Virus record (IMG/VR): IMGVR_UViG_2663762648_000012
Source of the DNA: a virus
Taxonomy: Duplodnaviria > Heunggongvirae > Uroviricota > Caudoviricetes
Length of the DNA: 5,436 bases
Strand: one strand, 5' to 3'
Shown: positions 208 through 5,436 of the stretch, piece by piece
How positions within the stretch are numbered: the first letter of the stretch is position 1
Layout of the letters: each line of letters opens with the position of its first letter
Translations under genes and position numbers: made by a program
Notes under the pieces: generated by a model
Seen by the model: the letters and a program-made list of their open reading frames with translations, nothing else
Told to the model about the DNA's origin: nothing
Database searches by the model: none

Positions 208-235
208 AGCCCGCCGGTTCAGGCGGGCTTTTTTG
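208..235 (+). terminator. Rho-independent terminator between the lom-like ORF end and stf
   Basis: Perfect GC-rich 8-bp stem (208-215 agcccgcc, pairing with 222-229 ggcgggct), 6-nt loop, followed by a T-run (tttttt, 229-234). Same position and near-identical sequence to the terminator downstream of lom in phage lambda (recalled). Confidence 0.7.
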
Positions 236-245
236 TGGGGTGAAT

Positions 246-3200
246 ATGGCAGTAAAGATTTCAGGTGTACTGAAAGACGGCACAGGAAAACCGGTACAGA
301 ACTGCACAATCCAGCTGAAAGCAAAACGTAACAGCACCACGGTGGTGGTGAACACGCTGGCCTCAGAAAATCCGGATGAAGCCGGGCGTTACAGCATGGA
401 CGTTGAGTACGGTCAGTACAGCGTTATTCTGTTGGTGGAAGGATTCCCGCCGTCACATGCCGGGACCATCACCGTGTATGAAGATTCCCGACCCGGTACG
501 CTGAATGATTTTCTCGGTGCCATGACGGAGGATGATGCCCGTCCGGAGGCACTGCGCCGTTTTGAGCTGATGGTGGAAGAGGTGGCGCGTAACGCGTCCG
601 CGGTGGCACAGAACACGGCAGCCGCGAAGAAATCAGCCAGCGATGCCAGCACATCAGCCCGTGAGGCGGCAACCCATGCGACTGATGCTGCAGATTCAGC
701 ACGTGCAGCCAGCACGTCAGCCGGACAGGCCGCTTCGTCGGCTCAGTCAGCGTCTTCCAGCGCAGGAACGGCATCAACAAAGGCCACTGAAGCCTCAAAA
801 AGTGCTGCCGCTGCAGAGTCCTCAAAAAGCGCGGCGGCTACCAGTGCCGGTGCGGCGAAAACGTTAGAAACGAATGCGGCAGCGTCACAACAATCAGCAG
901 CCACTTCTGCATCCACCGCGACCACGAAAGCGTCAGAAGCTGCCACCTCAGCCCGGGATGCGTCGGCTTCAAAAGAGGCGGCAAAATCATCAGAAACGAA
1001 CGCATCATCAAGCGCCAGTAGCGCAGCTTCCTCGGCGACGGCGGCTGCAAATTCTGCGAAGGCGGCCAAAACGTCCGAGACGAACGCCAGGTCTTCTGAA
1101 ACGGCAGCGGGACAGAGTGCCTCAGCTGCGGCAGGCTCAAAAACAGCGGCTGCGTCGTCTGCCAGCGCCGCGTCAACAAGTGCCGGGCAGGCCTCAGCCA
1201 GTGCCACCGCCGCCGGAAAATCGGCAGAAAGCGCCGCATCATCCGCTTCAACAGCCACAACGAAGGCTGGCGAAGCCACTGAACAGGCCAGCGCAGCAGC
1301 GAGGTCTGCTTCCGCAGCGAAGACATCCGAAACGAACGCGAAAGCGTCGGAAACCAGCGCAGAATCCTCAAAAACGGCTGCCGCATCGTCCGCCAGTTCG
1401 GCGGCGTCATCGGCATCATCGGCGTCTGCTTCAAAAGATGAGGCGACCAGACAGGCGTCAGCAGCGAGGGGCAGCGCCACGACGGCATCCACGAAGGCGA
1501 CAGAGGCTGCTGGTAGTGCGACGGCAGCAGCTCAGAGCAAAAGTACGGCGGAATCTGCAGCAACGCGCGCTGAGACAGCGGCAAAACGGGCAGAGGATAT
1601 TGCATCCGCCGTGGCGCTTGAGGATGCGAGCACGACGAAAAAGGGGATAGTACAGCTCAGTAGTGCGACTAACAGCACTTCCGAGTCACTGGCGGCAACA
1701 CCAAAAGCCGTTAAGGCCGCGTATGACCTGGCTAACGGGAAATACACCGCACAGGATGCAACGACAGCACAGAAAGGGATAATCCAGCTAAGCAGCGCGA
1801 CCAACAGCACGTCTGAAACGCTGGCGGCAACGCCAAAGGCAGTAAAAGCAGCCAATGACAATGCTGAGAAACGTCTGCAGAAAGATCAGAACGGTGCGGA
1901 TATCCCTGGCAAAGACACCTTTACGAAAAATATTGGTGCCTGCCGTGCCTTCGGTGGGTCAGTAAGCACAACAACAGGAAACTGGACGACTGCACAGTTT
2001 ATCGAGTGGCTGGATTCTCAGGGAGCATTTAACCATCCATACTGGATGTGCAAGGGTTCCTGGTCTTATGGCAATAATAAAATCATTACTGATACTGGCT
2101 GCGGTAATATTCATCTCGCCGGAGCTGTCATTGAAGTAATGGGGATAAAGTCAGCGATGACGATCCGCATTACCACTCCGACCACATCCAGCGGTGGCGG
2201 AACAACCAACGCCCAGTTTACCTATATTAATCACGGAACAGATTATTCACCTGGCTGGCGAAGGGACTATAACTCCAGAAATAAGCCAACGGCATCAGAG
2301 ATCGGGGCGCTACCGTCAGGTGGAACAGCAGTATCATCAGTTAATCTGGCTTCAAAAGGTCGGGTAGCCGCGCTGACAGACAATACGCAGGGGGCAGCAG
2401 GTCTTGAGTTATACGAGGTGTATAACAACGGATATCCAACAGCGTATGGAAATATCATTCACCTGAAAGGGATGACAGCCGTTGGCGAAGGTGAGTTACT
2501 CATCGGCTGGAGTGGTACAAGCGGTGCTCATGCTCCGGCATTTATTCGTTCACGACGGGATACGACCGACGCAAACTGGTCGCCGTGGGCGCAGCTTTAC
2601 ACCTCGGCTCATCCTCCTGCAGAGTTTTATCCAGTCGGTGCACCAATCCCGTGGCCATCAGATACCGTTCCGTCTGGCTATGCCCTGATGCAGGGGCAGG
2701 CTTTTGACAAATCTGCTTACCCGAAACTCGCAGCCGCTTATCCGTCAGGCGTGATCCCTGATATGCGTGGCTGGACGATTAAGGGCAAACCTGCCAGTGG
2801 TCGTGCCGTATTGTCTCAGGAACAGGATGGCATTAAATCGCACACCCACAGCGCCAGCGCATCCAGTACGGATTTGGGGACGAAAACCACATCGTCGTTT
2901 GATTACGGCACTAAATCCACGAATAACACCGGGGCGCATACGCACAGTCTGAGCGGCTCTACAAGTTCAGCTGGGGCCCACCAACATAGTCAGACTGGGC
3001 CCAGAACGAATAGCGGGAGTCAACCTACTGGAATGTTTCCGGCAGGGAGTACTCAAGTTAGCGGGACTAATCAGGTTGGTATCAGTGGCTCATTAACCAG
3101 TGGCACCTCCCAATGGGTAGGTAAATCATCTTCAGAAGGAAACCATACACACTCACTGTCCGGCACAGCAGCATCTGCGGGTGCACACGCGCATACTGTC

Positions 3201-3329
3201 GGTATTGGTGCTCATACGCACTCTGTTGCGATTGGTTCACATGGACACACCATCACCGTTAACGCTGCTGGTAACGCGGAAAACACCGTCAAAAACATCG
3301 CATTTAACTATATTGTGAGGCTCGCATAA
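246..3329 (+). CDS. stf: Side tail fibre protein (lambda Stf family), about 1027 aa; N-terminal lambda-like region, Ala/Ser-rich repeat shaft, duplicated [15 protein letters not shown] motif, a lower-GC central domain, and a His-rich HxH C-terminal tip
   Basis: Single long ORF from the six-frame track (240-3329). I place the start at ATG 246 ([26 protein letters not shown]..., matching the lambda Stf N-terminus) rather than the in-frame GTG at 240; a G-rich Shine-Dalgarno (gtgggg) lies just upstream. The C-terminus ...[31 protein letters not shown] matches the lambda Stf C-terminus. Stop TAA at 3327-3329. Confidence 0.95.
590..1640. repeat. Ala/Ser/Thr-rich low-complexity region of imperfect repeats inside stf (recurring AAKTSETNA-type units)
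   Basis: The translated sequence is almost entirely A/S/T/K/E with repeated motifs ([48 protein letters not shown]). The DNA is GC-rich with related units such as gcgaaaacgttagaaacgaatgcg, gccaaaacgtccgagacgaacgcc and gcgaagacatccgaaacgaacgcg. This also explains the long spurious antisense ORFs here. Confidence 0.6.
1641..1721 (+). repeat. Copy 1 of a duplicated 27-codon motif ([27 protein letters not shown]) within stf
   Basis: Direct repeat with copy 2 at 1773-1853, 132 bp (44 codons) apart and in frame. The two copies are identical at 25 of 27 residues but differ at many synonymous third positions. Confidence 0.8.
1773..1853 (+). repeat. Copy 2 of the duplicated 27-codon motif ([27 protein letters not shown]) within stf
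   Basis: See copy 1: same amino-acid motif, with divergent synonymous sites. Confidence 0.8.
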
Positions 3330-3910
3330 TGGCATTCAGAATGAGTGAACAAGCACGGACCATAAAAATTTATAACCTGCTGGCCGGAACTAATGAATTT
3401 ATTGGTGAAGGTGACGCATATATTCCGCCTCATACAGGTCTGCCTGCAAACAGTACCGATATTGCACCGCCAGATATTCCGGCTGGTTTCGTGGCTGTTT
3501 TCAACAGTGATGAGTCATCGTGGCATCTCGTTGAAGATCATCGGGGTAAAACGGTTTATGACGTGGCTTCCGGCGACGCGTTATTTATTTCTGAACTCGG
3601 CTCATTACCGGAAAATGTCACCTGGTTATCCCCGGAAGGGGAGTTTCAGAAGTGGAACGGCACAGCCTGGGTGAAGGATACGGAAGCAGAAAAACTGTTC
3701 CGGATCCGGGAGGCGGAAGAAACAAAAAACAGCCTGATGCAGGTAGCCAGTGAGCATATAGCGCCGCTTCAGGATGCTGTGGATCTGGAGATCGCAACGG
3801 AGAAAGAAACCTTGTTGCTGGAAGCTTGGAAAAAGTATCGGGTGTTGCTGAACCGTGTTGATACATCAACTGCACCGGATATTGAATGGCCAGTAGCACC
3901 TATAGGGTAA
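3329..3910 (+). CDS. tfa: Tail fibre assembly protein (lambda Tfa family chaperone), 193 aa
   Basis: ORF 3329-3910 ([54 protein letters not shown]...[10 protein letters not shown]) matches lambda Tfa as recalled, near-identical over the N-terminal part. Its ATG overlaps the stf stop in a TAATG arrangement (3327-3331), consistent with translational coupling, and gtgagg (3315-3320) provides a Shine-Dalgarno about 8 nt upstream. Stop TAA at 3908-3910. Confidence 0.93.
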
Positions 3911-3993
3911 ATTCGTAATGATTACCTAAATACGTTATTCTTTTGTTAAAAAAGTGATTTTGCTATAGGTAGGGAGTATGTTCTTGGATTAAG

Positions 3994-4027
3994 AATAAAA
4001 AATCGCCATGAAAGAGCTTCATGGCGA
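3994..4027 (-). terminator. Candidate rho-independent terminator oriented for leftward (minus-strand) transcription
   Basis: Perfect 10-bp inverted repeat (4003-4012 tcgccatgaa, pairing with 4018-4027 ttcatggcga) with a 5-nt loop. On the minus strand the stem is followed by TTTTTTATT (complement of 3994-4002). On the plus strand no T-run follows, so it is not a good terminator for tfa. Confidence 0.4.
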
Positions 4028-4169
4028 ATACATAAACGTACAAAATGTGATGAAAGTAGAGTGGCGTAAGCCACTATATTAAGATATAACAATAGCGAAG
4101 AAAAGTAAATAACATTTTATGGACGTTTAATTTTTAATTATAAAAACTAGAGTGCCCGATATTGTTTAT

Positions 4170-4178
4170 CTTGCTTTA
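4170..4178. repeat. Left copy of the 9-bp target-site duplication (CTTGCTTTA) generated by IS1 insertion
   Basis: The 9 bp immediately left of the IS1 left end (4170-4178) are identical to the 9 bp immediately right of the IS1 right end (4947-4955). A 9-bp duplication is the characteristic IS1 size. Confidence 0.9.
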
Positions 4179-4201
4179 GGTGATGCTGCCAACTTACTGA
4201 T
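4179..4201. repeat. IS1 left terminal inverted repeat (IRL, about 23 bp)
   Basis: ggtgatgctgccaacttactgat; the reverse complement of the right end (ggtaatgactccaacttattgat) matches at 18 of 23 positions, as expected for IS1's imperfect inverted repeats. Confidence 0.85.
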
Positions 4202-4233
4202 TTAGTGTATGATGGTGTTTTTGAGGTTCTCCA

Positions 4234-4509
4234 GTGGCTTCTGTTTCTATCAGCTGTCCCTCCTGTTCAGCTACTGACGGGGTGGTGCGTAACGGCAAAA
4301 GCACCGCCGGACATCAGCGCTATCTCTGCTCTCACTGCCGTAAAACATGGCAACTGCAGTTCACTTACACCGCTTCTCAACCCGGTACGCACCAGAAAAT
4401 CATTGATATGGCCATGAATGGCGTTGGATGCCGGGCAACTGCACGCATTATGGGCGTTGGCCTCAACACGATTTTACGTCACTTAAAAAACTCAGGCCGC
4501 AGTCGGTAA
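4234..4509 (+). CDS. insA: IS1 InsA (transposition inhibitor / DNA-binding protein), 91 aa
   Basis: ORF starting at GTG 4234 ([51 protein letters not shown]...LKNSGRSR) matches IS1 InsA as recalled, including the Cys-rich zinc-finger-like N-terminus. A Shine-Dalgarno-like tgagg sits 7 nt upstream. Confidence 0.93.
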
Positions 4510-4931
4510 CCTCGCGCATACAGCCGGGCAGTGACGTCATCGTCTGCGCGGAAATGGACGAACAGTGGGGCTATGTCGGGGCTAAATCGCGCCAGCGCTG
4601 GCTGTTTTACGCGTATGACAGTCTCCGGAAGACGGTTGTTGCGCACGTATTCGGTGAACGCACTATGGCGACGCTGGGGCGTCTTATGAGCCTGCTGTCA
4701 CCCTTTGACGTGGTGATATGGATGACGGATGGCTGGCCGCTGTATGAATCCCGCCTGAAGGGAAAGCTGCACGTAATCAGCAAGCGATATACGCAGCGAA
4801 TTGAGCGGCATAACCTGAATCTGAGGCAGCACCTGGCACGGCTGGGACGGAAGTCGCTGTCGTTCTCAAAATCGGTGGAGCTGCATGACAAAGTCATCGG
4901 GCATTATCTGAACATAAAACACTATCAATAA
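4428..4931 (+). CDS. insB: IS1 InsB reading frame (catalytic part of the InsAB' transposase produced by a -1 frameshift from insA)
   Basis: ORF in the -1 frame relative to insA, overlapping its 3' end ([53 protein letters not shown]...HYLNIKHYQ), matching IS1 InsB as recalled. The coordinates are those of the ORF as computed from the first in-frame ATG; the functional product is the InsA-B' fusion. Confidence 0.9.
4485..4491 (+). other. Programmed -1 ribosomal frameshift site (A6C slippery motif) joining insA to insB
   Basis: The heptamer a-aaa-aac lies in the insA frame (LKN codons) just upstream of the insA stop, within the insA/insB overlap. This is the documented IS1 recoding site that yields InsAB' transposase. 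Confidence 0.8.
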
Positions 4932-4946
4932 GTTGGAGTCATTACC
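4924..4946. repeat. IS1 right terminal inverted repeat (IRR, about 23 bp)
   Basis: atcaataagttggagtcattacc; this is the inverted partner of IRL at 4179-4201. Confidence 0.85.
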
Positions 4947-4955
4947 CTTGCTTTA
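4947..4955. repeat. Right copy of the 9-bp target-site duplication (CTTGCTTTA)
   Basis: Identical to 4170-4178 and immediately abutting the IS1 right end. Confidence 0.9.
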
Positions 4956-5436
4956 AAATAATGTACTCAAACCAAATTTTTGAGCTAAAAGCTCAAATAA
5001 TATAAATGCAATAATAATGTTTAATAAGACAATTAGCTTGCTTTGTATTTTCATTTCGGAATACTGTTAAGTAACTTTGATGACCCTAACAATAGATCGG
5101 AATTTTCTTAGAGTCAATGGTCACTGTTTTTGCTTGCAAAGCAAATGTTTTGGTGGTTATAAGTCGTCTTAATATAGTCACGCATGCAACTTGTTCCATG
5201 CGGAGATTAAAGATTGGAATATAACGCGAAGATGGAATTAAATTACATTTGCAATAATTAATTTATTATTACTCAATAATTACCGATATTATTATTGTAA
5301 ATTAATCATTAGAGTGCAAAAAGAAATGTAACGGCAAAATAAGAGGACGATAGCTGAGAAAAAAGCGTGCTTTCCCAATCTGGGGCAAATCACGTCTGAA
5401 TGACACCTGAAAACAGGTGGTAGCCTCAAGAAGGCT

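What the first reader, a model, noticed from the sequence alone, without database searches (positions are those of the whole stretch)
3994..4027. Orphan leftward-facing terminator between tfa and IS1
A perfect 10-bp stem with a 5-nt loop is followed by a U-run only on the minus strand. This would terminate a transcript coming from the right, convergent with tfa. No minus-strand ORF of any size lies between the hairpin and the IS1 (4028-4178), and the IS1 now sits about 150 bp to its right. It may be the 3' end of a small RNA, or of a transcription unit whose body was separated by the IS1 insertion or lies beyond it.
Basis: inference. Interest (0 to 1): 0.35.

Follow-up and report, generated by a model that had tools for sequence, protein, structure and literature searches.

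The report
Orphaned terminator of small prophage gene
The hairpin is an ordinary transcription stop signal belonging to a tiny, unannotated prophage gene for a 33-residue YncL-like membrane protein, and an IS1 insertion has cut it off from that gene in this genome.

Summary
A perfect 10-bp stem (4003-4012 / 4018-4027) with a 5-nt loop is followed by UUUUUUAUUCUU on the minus strand only. None of 300 dinucleotide shuffles of the window gives such a site.

IS1 (4179-4946, 9-bp duplication CTTGCTTTA) is a simple insertion. About 820 complete E. coli genomes and four phages carry the IS-free sequence. In these, the hairpin lies 148 nt downstream of a 33-codon minus-strand ORF (window 5054-4953), which follows a conserved TTGACT-17-TATTGT promoter-like site.

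The ORF is a sub-threshold but clearly non-random relative of the small membrane protein YncL. It is under strong purifying selection: dN/dS is 0.09 between two 33-aa variants.

Promoter, ORF, 3' UTR and hairpin travel together as a cassette of about 0.5 kb next to tfa. They do so in prophages with five different right-hand neighbours, and most phages with a similar tfa lack the cassette. This is moron-like behaviour.

The IS1 landed on the stop codon, so the ORF is intact but its terminator is orphaned.

There is no expression data. A 3'-UTR-derived sRNA cannot be excluded. The terminator is ordinary; the unannotated phage-borne YncL-like gene is mildly new.

The parts
3991..4002 (-). U-tract of the terminator. 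On the minus strand it reads TTTTTT A TT C TT directly 3' of the stem.
   Evidence: Relatives carry the variants TTTTTATTCTT and TTTCTTATTCT.
4003..4027 (-). Terminator hairpin: 10-bp perfect stem (4003-4012 / 4018-4027) and 5-nt loop (4013-4017).
   Evidence: The 10 stem pairs are invariant in 28 haplotypes, and the loop-closing G.U becomes A-U in 7 of them.
4028..4175 (-). 148-nt 3' UTR of the small gene, now separated from it by IS1. It includes a second small hairpin at 4060-4075 (AGTGGC-GTAA-GCCACT).
   Evidence: The IS-free alignment is. The second hairpin folds at -8.9 kcal/mol, z = -5. The stretch from 4028 to about 4114 is 87% conserved between the two gene types, and the stretch next to the stop codon only 58%.
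4170..4178 (.). Left copy of the 9-bp IS1 target-site duplication CTTGCTTTA. Bases 4176-4178 are a duplicate of the gene's stop codon (TAA on the minus strand).
4179..4946 (+). IS1 element of 768 bp, with insA and insB on the + strand. It is a simple insertion.
   Evidence: Pfam Zn_ribbon_InsA, HTH_Tnp_IS1 and DDE_Tnp_IS1. Homology to IS-free genomes stops exactly at 4178 and resumes at 4947.
4947..4955 (.). Right copy of the target-site duplication CTTGCTTTA. It contains the functional stop codon at 4953-4955.
4953..5054 (-). 33-codon gene for a YncL-like small membrane protein, MKIQSKLIVLLNIIIAFILFELLAQKFGLSTLF. It is intact in this window.
   Evidence: ORF. NCBIfam YncL match: E = 1.3e-5, 25 bits against a cut-off of 35. 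BLASTP against K-12 YncL: 39% identity, E = 2e-7. Alignment score 60-67 against 20 +/- 4 for shuffles, 0 of 20000 reaching it. dN/dS = 0.09 against the second type.
5055..5088 (-). Predicted 5' UTR of about 34 nt. It has no recognisable Shine-Dalgarno sequence.
   Evidence: by inspection.
5089..5117 (-). Sigma-70 promoter-like site, TTGACT-17 nt-TATTGT.
   Evidence: The hexamers are kept (TTGACT / TATCGT) in the divergent type 2 cassette, where the flanks are 70-73% identical. This is a prediction only.
5118..5231 (-). Upstream part of the conserved cassette. Homology across the different prophage contexts ends near 5231.

Best explanation
The hairpin is the Rho-independent terminator of a small, self-contained, leftward-transcribed cassette at the right end of a lambdoid prophage, just downstream of tfa and convergent with it.

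In the uninterrupted form, a sigma-70-type promoter (window 5117-5089) would drive a transcript of about 310 nt. That transcript carries a 33-codon gene for a YncL-like single-pass membrane protein (5054-4953) and a 148-nt 3' UTR, and ends at the 4027-4003 hairpin and its U-tract. This is the promoter-gene-terminator layout of a phage 'moron'.

In this genome IS1 inserted exactly at the stop codon. Its 9-bp target duplication preserves the ORF but moves the 3' UTR and terminator 777 bp away. The terminator is now orphaned, and the gene's transcript must run into IS1 antisense to insAB.

Shown: the hairpin and U-tract; the simple IS1 insertion; the fixed linkage of ORF and hairpin; the homology to YncL; purifying selection on the ORF; the mobility of the cassette.

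Inferred: promoter use, termination in vivo, translation, and the protein's function. By analogy with YncL and YohP, the protein may act on membrane potential.
For: 1. Canonical terminator anatomy on the minus strand only, well beyond chance.

2. IS1 is a clean 768-bp insertion with a 9-bp duplication. About 816-828 of 5426 complete E. coli genomes and 4 phage records (mEp332, PhiR70_1, ev099 as two records) carry the IS-free sequence.

3. In 41 of 43 other loci holding the exact hairpin, the 33-codon ORF ends 148-149 nt upstream of it. Of 83 loci holding the ORF, 79 have the hairpin at that fixed distance. The other four are this window (IS1), a 91-nt 3'-UTR deletion, one stem point mutation and one contig break.

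4. The ORF is real. It matches the YncL HMM at E = 1e-5. It is 39% identical to K-12 YncL over the full length. Its alignment score is about 10 sd above composition-preserving shuffles. A second type with 18 nucleotide but only 5 amino-acid differences keeps the same start, stop and length, giving dN/dS = 0.09; 0 of 20000 random-substitution trials did as well. Within type 1 there are 6 synonymous and 2 non-synonymous variable sites.

5. Among 29 haplotypes, the promoter (6.9% variable columns), ORF (6.9%) and hairpin (8%) are the best conserved parts. The 83 nt between the U-tract and the tfa stop codon (window 3910-3992) are the worst conserved (39.8%). The hairpin therefore marks the left edge of the conserved unit.

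6. The cassette sits next to tfa in prophages with different right-hand neighbours: attR/zinT-yodB, ydfJ, AraC-IS2-int, sitDCBA and intS-argW. It is absent from most phages with a near-identical tfa, including lambda: 52 near-full-length tfa matches against 4 with the cassette.

7. In IS-free L001 the only terminator-like sites in 1.1 kb are this hairpin and a weak one inside the ORF. The only promoter-like site on the minus strand between the ORF start codon and position 5634 is the predicted one, immediately upstream of the ORF.
Against: No transcript data of any kind were available, so promoter activity, the 3' end and translation are all inferred.

The promoter match is only 9 of 12, and such matches are no more frequent here than in shuffles.

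There is no Shine-Dalgarno sequence upstream of the ATG in either gene type.

The YncL HMM score (22-25 bits) is below NCBI's cut-off of 35. RefSeq annotates nothing here in the 60 rows inspected.

Diversity is low, so the hairpin shows only one-sided changes and no compensatory pairs.

Some variants have a weakened U-tract (UUUCUU).

The 3' UTR nearest the hairpin is as conserved as the ORF. This could point to an additional RNA function, although recombination explains at least part of it.
Confidence: 0.75

Rival explanations
1. The hairpin is mainly the 3' end of a regulatory small RNA. A species of about 80-110 nt would be cut from the 3' UTR or made from an internal promoter. It would consist of the small 5' hairpin (4075-4060), an AU-rich linker, and the terminator with its U tail, which is an Hfq-type architecture. 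The small ORF upstream would be incidental or a second function.
For: The roughly 110 nt nearest the hairpin are 87-92% identical between the two cassette types, against 58% for the UTR next to the stop codon. The layout of stem-loop, U-rich linker, terminator and U tail is typical of Hfq-binding sRNAs (sequence; the comparison with Hfq sRNAs is from general knowledge). A natural 91-nt deletion keeps the last 57 or so nt of the 3' UTR plus the terminator. Hfq-bound sRNAs are known in lambdoid prophage structural regions, for example PasB (PMC8550237; bioRxiv 10.64898/2026.05.13.724894).
Against: No Rfam family matches at E <= 1, including the prophage sRNA families that the Pas preprint cites by Rfam accession (Esr41 RF02676, AgvB RF02702, AsxR RF02703). 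No promoter-like site lies inside the 3' UTR, and the candidate -10 positions vary between haplotypes. In the divergent type, the segment from the second hairpin to tfa is almost identical to another lineage, so its conservation reflects recombination rather than independent selection. The L071 deletion removes the small 5' hairpin. The ORF is clearly under protein-level selection. PasB itself is a different sequence at a different place, between gpI and gpJ.
Confidence: 0.13
2. The hairpin is a boundary or insulator terminator. Its main role would be to stop any leftward read-in from neighbouring cargo or host genes (sitABCD, genes near the right-hand attachment site) from running antisense into the tail-fibre genes. 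It would not belong specifically to the small gene.
For: It is the last strong minus-strand terminator before tfa. In 20 genomes the minus-strand sitABCD operon lies directly upstream of the cassette. Sequence conservation drops sharply just beyond the U-tract, so it is a mosaic boundary.
Against: It always travels with the small gene at a fixed distance, whatever lies further right. Phages with the same tfa but without the small gene also lack the hairpin. In the sit context another hairpin followed by a T-rich stretch sits just after sitD. The two roles are not mutually exclusive.
Confidence: 0.08
3. The palindrome acts at the DNA level, as a binding site for a dimeric protein or a recombination hotspot, or it is a chance inverted repeat with no RNA function.
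For: It is a perfect inverted repeat, and homology between prophage lineages breaks next to it. IS1 has inserted independently within 4 nt of it in another contig.
Against: The asymmetric T-run directly after the stem on one strand only is the signature of a terminator rather than an operator. Chance is excluded, with 0 of 300 shuffles. The only common change within the hairpin converts a G.U closing pair to A-U, which fits RNA pairing. IS1 favours AT-rich DNA in general (from general knowledge).
Confidence: 0.03

Closest known systems
YncL (E. coli K-12 b4598; NCBIfam NF000537, 'stress response membrane protein YncL')
   Same: Both are 31-33 residues. Both have a short polar N-terminus (M-x-[VI]-x-S-[KR]), one hydrophobic helix with a central Asn (VL[IL]N[FI][FI]xA..LFxL) and a [KR]FG motif after the helix. 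The two are collinear over residues 1-28 with 39-46% identity.
   Different: The score is 22-25 bits against a family cut-off of 35, while K-12 YncL scores 68.6. This gene is carried by prophages rather than the core patD-ortT locus. The C-terminal tail differs (LSTLF against WFI). There is no Shine-Dalgarno sequence, whereas yncL has AAGGTGG. It has a 148-nt 3' UTR ending in a canonical terminator, whereas core yncL is followed by a different hairpin without a U-run.
Phage 'morons': autonomous promoter-gene-terminator units inserted between conserved phage genes (for example lambda bor and lom, and the HK97/HK022 morons; concept of Juhala, Hendrix and colleagues, from general knowledge)
   Same: A short AT-rich unit with its own promoter-like site and a factor-independent terminator. 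It lies between the tail-fibre genes and the attachment/integrase end. It is present in some phages and absent in others with nearly the same neighbouring gene.
   Different: Expression from the prophage state has not been shown. The gene product is much smaller than the classic examples.
Type I toxin genes (Hok, Ldr, Ibs, TisB, ShoB, ZorO and others)
   Same: A small hydrophobic single-helix peptide encoded on a structured mRNA with long untranslated regions (z = -4.5). Overproduced YncL depolarises the membrane (PMC12542507).
   Different: No antisense RNA gene or promoter was found. Alignment scores against eight type I toxins and YohP are in the 18-35 range, against 60-67 for YncL and about 20 +/- 4 for shuffles. 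A predicted pairing between the start codon region and the 3' UTR is no better than chance.
Prophage-encoded Hfq-bound sRNAs of lambdoid structural regions (PasB of EPEC E2348/69)
   Same: A leftward-facing element with a terminator inside a rightward-transcribed tail gene region. The neighbourhood shows the same Rfam hits, IS009 and IsrG.
   Different: PasB lies between gpI and gpJ, about 6 kb upstream of stf, and has an unrelated sequence. The element here follows a protein-coding gene.

Membership tests
Intrinsic (Rho-independent) terminator | Stable G+C-containing stem-loop in the RNA | tested here: met
   A 10-bp perfect stem with 5 G-C pairs, -16.2 kcal/mol, z = -5.
Intrinsic (Rho-independent) terminator | U-rich tract immediately 3' of the stem, on the transcribed strand | tested here: met
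   UUUUUUAUUCUU on the minus strand. The + strand has AAUACAUAAACG.
Intrinsic (Rho-independent) terminator | Lies at the end of a transcription unit on the same strand | tested here: met
   In IS-free relatives it lies 148 nt after the stop codon of a selected 33-codon gene. In this window it is separated from the gene by IS1.
Intrinsic (Rho-independent) terminator | Transcripts end there in vivo or in vitro | not testable with these tools
   No expression data. The literature searches found nothing on this locus.
YncL family (NCBIfam NF000537, equivalog) | HMM score at or above the curated cut-off (35 bits) | tested here: not met
   25.0, 23.5 and 22.5 bits for the three variants, against 68.6 for K-12 YncL.
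YncL family (NCBIfam NF000537, equivalog) | Sequence similarity beyond what composition explains | tested here: met
   E = 1.3e-5 against 18950 models. BLASTP E = 2e-7. 0 of 20000 shuffles reach the alignment score.
YncL family (NCBIfam NF000537, equivalog) | Small single-pass inner-membrane protein that is actually made | not testable with these tools
   The hydrophobic core L7-A24 flanked by Lys residues is visible in the sequence. Synthesis and location are untested.
Phage moron | Own promoter and own terminator flanking the gene | tested here: inconclusive
   The terminator is clear. The promoter is a conserved 9-of-12 consensus match only.
Phage moron | Present or absent between otherwise homologous phage genomes | tested here: met
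   A tfa of 94-95% identity occurs in lambda and others without the cassette. 52 phage records have a near-full-length tfa match and 4 have the cassette.
Simple IS1 insertion | A 768-bp element with IS1 inverted repeats and insA/insB, flanked by a 9-bp direct duplication of the target | tested here: met
   4179-4946, with CTTGCTTTA on both sides. The IS-free sequence is continuous in relatives.
Type I toxin-antitoxin locus | Antisense or divergent small RNA gene overlapping the toxin mRNA | tested here: not met
   No + strand promoter or terminator pair lies opposite the ORF or its UTRs. No Rfam antitoxin family matches.
Hfq-dependent sRNA | A discrete stable short transcript bound by Hfq | not testable with these tools
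   Only the architecture is suggestive. No known family matches.

The most novel reading that the evidence does not exclude
The cassette is a dual-function phage moron. It would encode a YncL-like membrane-depolarising micro-protein. In addition, its conserved terminator-proximal 3' UTR (about 80-110 nt: small hairpin, AU-rich linker, terminator) would be released as an Hfq-binding 3'-UTR-derived sRNA that acts on host mRNAs. In this window the IS1 insertion would have uncoupled the two, silencing the sRNA part while leaving the protein gene intact.
Probability: 0.12. Interest if true: 0.55.

Novelty: new member of a known kind. Interest (0 to 1): 0.3.

Why it matters
The terminator itself is routine. 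Explaining it, however, exposes a protein-coding gene that genome annotation misses.

The gene is a phage-borne relative of the stress-induced small membrane protein YncL. It is present in about 15% of complete E. coli genomes and in inducible lambdoid phages, always next to the tail-fibre assembly gene.

Overproduced YncL and YohP depolarise the membrane and condense the nucleoid (PMC12542507). A prophage copy could therefore influence lysogen physiology, stress tolerance or superinfection.

The window also gives a natural allele in which IS1 separates the gene from its 3' UTR and terminator. That allele is a ready-made test of what those parts contribute.

Tried and rejected
1. Known RNA families. 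Rfam at E <= 1 on the window and on the IS-free locus gave nothing on the hairpin or 3' UTR.

2. PasB or other Pas sRNAs. PasB flanks share the IS009 and IsrG hits, but PasB maps between gpI and gpJ in E2348/69 and has an unrelated sequence.

3. Hok-like fold-back. RNAalifold predicts pairing of the start codon region with the UTR just upstream of the terminator. The duplex energy (-6.9) equals the shuffle mean (-6.86), and all pairs are invariant, so I rejected it as evidence.

4. Type I toxin families. No Pfam, PHROG or other NCBIfam match, and alignment scores to eight toxins are low, between 18 and 35.

5. Other minus-strand ORFs.
   - The 48-codon ORF through the hairpin has no family match and is frame-broken by a T-run length variant.
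   - The 37-aa ORF annotated in PhiR70_1 loses its start and gains a stop in the divergent type.

6. More distant relatives.
   - tblastn against phages found nothing, which I attribute to the low-complexity filter.
   - The HMMER scan of 1.84 billion representatives found only the protein itself and a frameshift variant.
   - Degenerate DNA patterns found only two phage-type variants plus core yncL of E. coli and Citrobacter.
   - As a result, no compensatory covariation could be obtained for the hairpin.

7. Frequency of the exact IS1 junction. The search was confounded by joined pieces. It showed instead that IS1 sits about 0.5 kb to the right of the cassette in the one such hit I inspected, L128. 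The search counted up to 87 genomes with both pieces within reach, but those were not checked.

8. Literature. No paper holds the peptide sequence or describes a prophage YncL paralogue.

Full report
**1. The observation**

The + strand at 4003-4027 reads TCGCCATGAA-AGAGC-TTCATGGCGA. This is a perfect 10-bp stem with a 5-nt loop. On the minus strand it is followed at once by TTTTTTATTCTT. On the + strand it is followed by ATACATAAACG.

The consensus scan reports it as a minus-strand terminator-like site. As RNA, the minus strand folds at -16.2 kcal/mol (z = -5.0). The + strand RNA makes the same hairpin but has no U tail.

It is the only perfect >=10-bp stem plus T-run in the window, and none of 300 dinucleotide-preserving shuffles produced one.

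- the side tail fibre gene, 240-3329;
- tfa, 3329-3910 (Caudo_TAP);
- IS1, 4179-4946 (InsA and DDE_Tnp_IS1 domains).

A mechanical 48-codon TTG ORF runs through the hairpin. It has no family match, and a common T-run length variant breaks its frame.

**2. IS1 is a simple insertion and the sequence continues beyond it**

A search of 5426 complete E. coli genomes found 816 with the region 3880-4178, and the match stopped exactly at 4178. In IS-free genomes the sequence continues ...CTTGCTTTA|AAATAATGTACTCAAACC.... This is what follows IS1 in the window at 4956 onward.

The 9 bases CTTGCTTTA occur on both sides of the 768-bp element (4170-4178 and 4947-4955). That is the normal IS1 target duplication.

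**3. What the hairpin belongs to**

In the IS-free form, a 33-codon minus-strand ORF ends 148 nt upstream of the stem. It is L001 5398-5297, which corresponds to window 5054-4953. Its product is MKIQSKLIVLLNIIIAFILFELLAQKFGLSTLF.

The ORF's stop codon lies inside the IS1 target duplication. The ORF is therefore intact in the window, but its 3' UTR and terminator have been moved 777 bp away.

A TTGACT-17-TATTGT promoter-like site lies 34 nt upstream of the ATG (window 5117-5089).

In the 1.1 kb around the IS-free locus, the terminator scan finds only this hairpin and a weak AT-rich one inside the ORF (2 found, 0.5 expected). The predicted transcript of about 315 nt is unusually structured (z = -4.5).

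**4. The ORF is a real gene and a YncL relative**

Similarity to YncL:
- The ORF matches only the YncL model of NCBIfam (E = 1.3e-5, 25 bits, residues 1-28 on profile positions 1-28 of 30). This is below the curated cut-off of 35.
- K-12 YncL (MNVSSRTVVLINFFAAVGLFTLISMRFGWFI) is 39% identical over 28 residues, BLASTP E = 2e-7.
- Smith-Waterman scores against E. coli and Citrobacter YncL are 60-67. Composition-preserving shuffles give 20 +/- 4, and 0 of 20000 reach the observed score. Scores against nine other small hydrophobic proteins (YohP and eight type I toxins) are 18-35.

Evidence of selection:
- A second cassette type was found in a prophage at argW/yfdC and in several metagenome and viral contigs. 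It encodes MKIQSKLIILLNIIFALILFKLLAQKFGLYTLF.
- It also has 33 codons, with the same start and stop. It has 18 nucleotide differences but only 5 amino-acid differences, giving a Nei-Gojobori dN/dS of 0.09.
- None of 20000 random sets of 18 substitutions kept the frame open with so few amino-acid changes.
- Within type 1, 6 of 8 variable sites are synonymous.

Annotation status:
- Gene callers almost never call the ORF. There are two tiny unnamed clusters among 1.84 billion representatives.
- RefSeq annotates nothing under it in the 60 genomes inspected.
- It is absent from Pfam and PHROGs.

One weakness remains: neither type has a Shine-Dalgarno sequence.

**5. Linkage and conservation**

Of 43 other loci holding the exact hairpin, 41 have the ORF 148-149 nt upstream. 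The two exceptions are a contig end and an independent IS1 insertion 4 nt from the stem.

Of 83 loci holding the ORF, 79 have the hairpin at the fixed distance. The other four are:
- this window;
- L071, with a 91-nt deletion between two CACTCTA repeats that keeps the ORF and hairpin;
- one low-coverage contig with a G-to-A change in the stem;
- one contig break.

Variable columns among 29 haplotypes:

| Region | Variable columns |
|---|---|
| Promoter | 6.9% |
| ORF | 6.9% |
| Hairpin | 8% |
| 3' UTR | 14.9% |
| 83 nt between U-tract and tfa stop codon | 39.8% |

The ten stem pairs never vary. The loop-closing G.U becomes A-U in 7 of 28 sequences, and the outermost T-A pair is lost in a few. 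No compensatory changes were seen, because the family is too uniform.

Identity between the two types, by region:

| Region | Identity |
|---|---|
| Promoter | 86% |
| 5' UTR | 73% |
| ORF | 80% (no indels) |
| 3' UTR next to the stop codon | 58% (with indels) |
| 3' UTR nearest the hairpin | 87% |
| Hairpin | 92% |
| U-tract and the sequence from it to the tfa stop codon | 57% |

In type 2, the stretch from the second small hairpin to tfa is nearly identical to another lineage. Part of this conservation therefore reflects recombination rather than selection.

**6. Behaviour as a cassette**

The unit of about 0.5 kb lies directly after tfa in prophages whose right-hand neighbours differ:
- attR next to zinT/yodB;
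- ydfJ;
- an AraC-family regulator, IS2 remnants and integrase in phages ev099 and PhiR70_1;
- the minus-strand sitDCBA operon;
- intS-argW.

A tfa of 94-95% identity occurs in 52 phage records, including lambda. Only four records carry the cassette, and homology to lambda stops about 19 nt before the tfa stop codon. This is how a moron behaves.

**7. Mechanism proposed**

The hairpin is the factor-independent terminator of this moron. It ends an mRNA of about 310 nt for a YncL-like single-pass membrane protein, and it keeps that leftward transcription from running antisense into the tail-fibre genes.

In this window, IS1 has orphaned it. The gene's transcripts must now enter IS1 antisense to insAB. 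The only nearby terminator-like site there is a weak 5-bp one at 4319-4305. Little should now reach the hairpin.

What the protein does is inferred only by analogy. Overproduced YncL and YohP depolarise the membrane, induce the phage-shock response and condense the nucleoid (PMC12542507).

**8. Rival explanations**

- *3'-UTR-derived or independent sRNA.* The conserved UTR nearest the hairpin and an Hfq-like architecture suggest it. It has no family match and no internal promoter, and the L071 deletion removes its putative 5' hairpin. PasB, the known sRNA of this type of region, is a different element.
- *General boundary terminator for read-in from cargo such as sitABCD.* This is compatible with the main explanation but does not explain the fixed linkage to the small gene.
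- *DNA-level palindrome or chance.* This is excluded by the strand-asymmetric T-run and the shuffle test.
- *Hok-like fold-back of the 3' UTR onto the start codon.* It was predicted but is no better than chance.

**9. Verdict**

The terminator is ordinary. The modest novelty is an unannotated, selected, phage-borne YncL-like micro-gene carried by about 15% of complete E. coli genomes (816-828 of 5426). No expression evidence exists, so confidence in the full mechanism is about 0.75.

Noticed in passing
window 3672-3870 (+): A full-length, high-scoring Rfam hit to IS009 (218 bits against a gathering score of 117) lies entirely inside the tfa coding sequence. This 'sRNA' family seems to coincide with the 3' part of a tail fibre assembly gene. 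The Pas sRNA preprint lists IS009 and IsrG as the commonest Rfam hits near PasB.
   Followed up: partly
window 208-229 (+): A strong + strand terminator-like hairpin, AGCCCGCC-GGTTCA-GGCGGGCT followed by TTTTTTG, sits just upstream of the side tail fibre gene start (240), between lom and stf in relatives. A weak Trp_leader Rfam hit overlaps it.
   Followed up: no
L027 12465-12590, and L128 about 3030-3800: IS1 has hit this AT-rich cassette more than once. One viral contig has IS1 ending 4 nt from the hairpin stem. In strain 2009C-3133 an IS1 sits about 0.5 kb to the right of a second copy of the cassette, before an AraC-family gene. The junction search counted up to 87 genomes with cassette and IS1 pieces within reach of each other, but only this one was inspected.
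   Followed up: partly
L071 about 2585-2600 (E. coli N51, NZ_CM165887.1): A natural 91-nt deletion in the 3' UTR lies between two CACTCTA direct repeats. It removes the small second hairpin but keeps the ORF, the last 57 or so nt of the UTR and the terminator.
   Followed up: partly
window 5352-5436 (corresponds to L001 5696-5800): A stretch of about 105 bp to the right of the cassette recurs in about 650 further E. coli genomes that lack the cassette. These copies are at other prophage ends, for example after nleG-like DUF1076 genes next to uspF in L127. In L001 it is followed by a sequence resembling the 3' half of a tRNA (L001 5898-5949). It is probably sequence adjacent to the attachment site.
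   Followed up: partly
L068-L070 about 2440-3300: In 20 genomes the cassette lies between tfa and the minus-strand iron/manganese transporter operon sitABCD. A separate long-loop hairpin (CCGTGGC...GCCACGG followed by TTCTCTTT) lies just after sitD.
   Followed up: partly
window 5086-5199 (-), and L004 3615-3782 (-): Phage records annotate hypothetical proteins here (37 aa in PhiR70_1, 55 aa in ev099) instead of the 33-codon gene. The 37-aa ORF loses its start codon and gains a stop in the divergent cassette type, so it is probably not a gene.
   Followed up: partly
window 4979-4997 (-): A weak AT-rich hairpin flagged as terminator-like lies inside the 33-codon ORF (codons FELLAQK). The A24D variant breaks it, so it is probably incidental.
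   Followed up: partly
L006 about 4035-4090 (-), and L057-L067: Core yncL of K-12 and of Citrobacter species is followed by a conserved long hairpin without a U-run (for example CTGGCAGAGAG...CTCTCTGCCA). This is unlike the canonical terminator of the phage copy.
   Followed up: no
window 821-1239 (-): Two weak sub-threshold Rfam hits to isrG (17-20 bits against a gathering score of 100) lie antisense within the side tail fibre gene.
   Followed up: no
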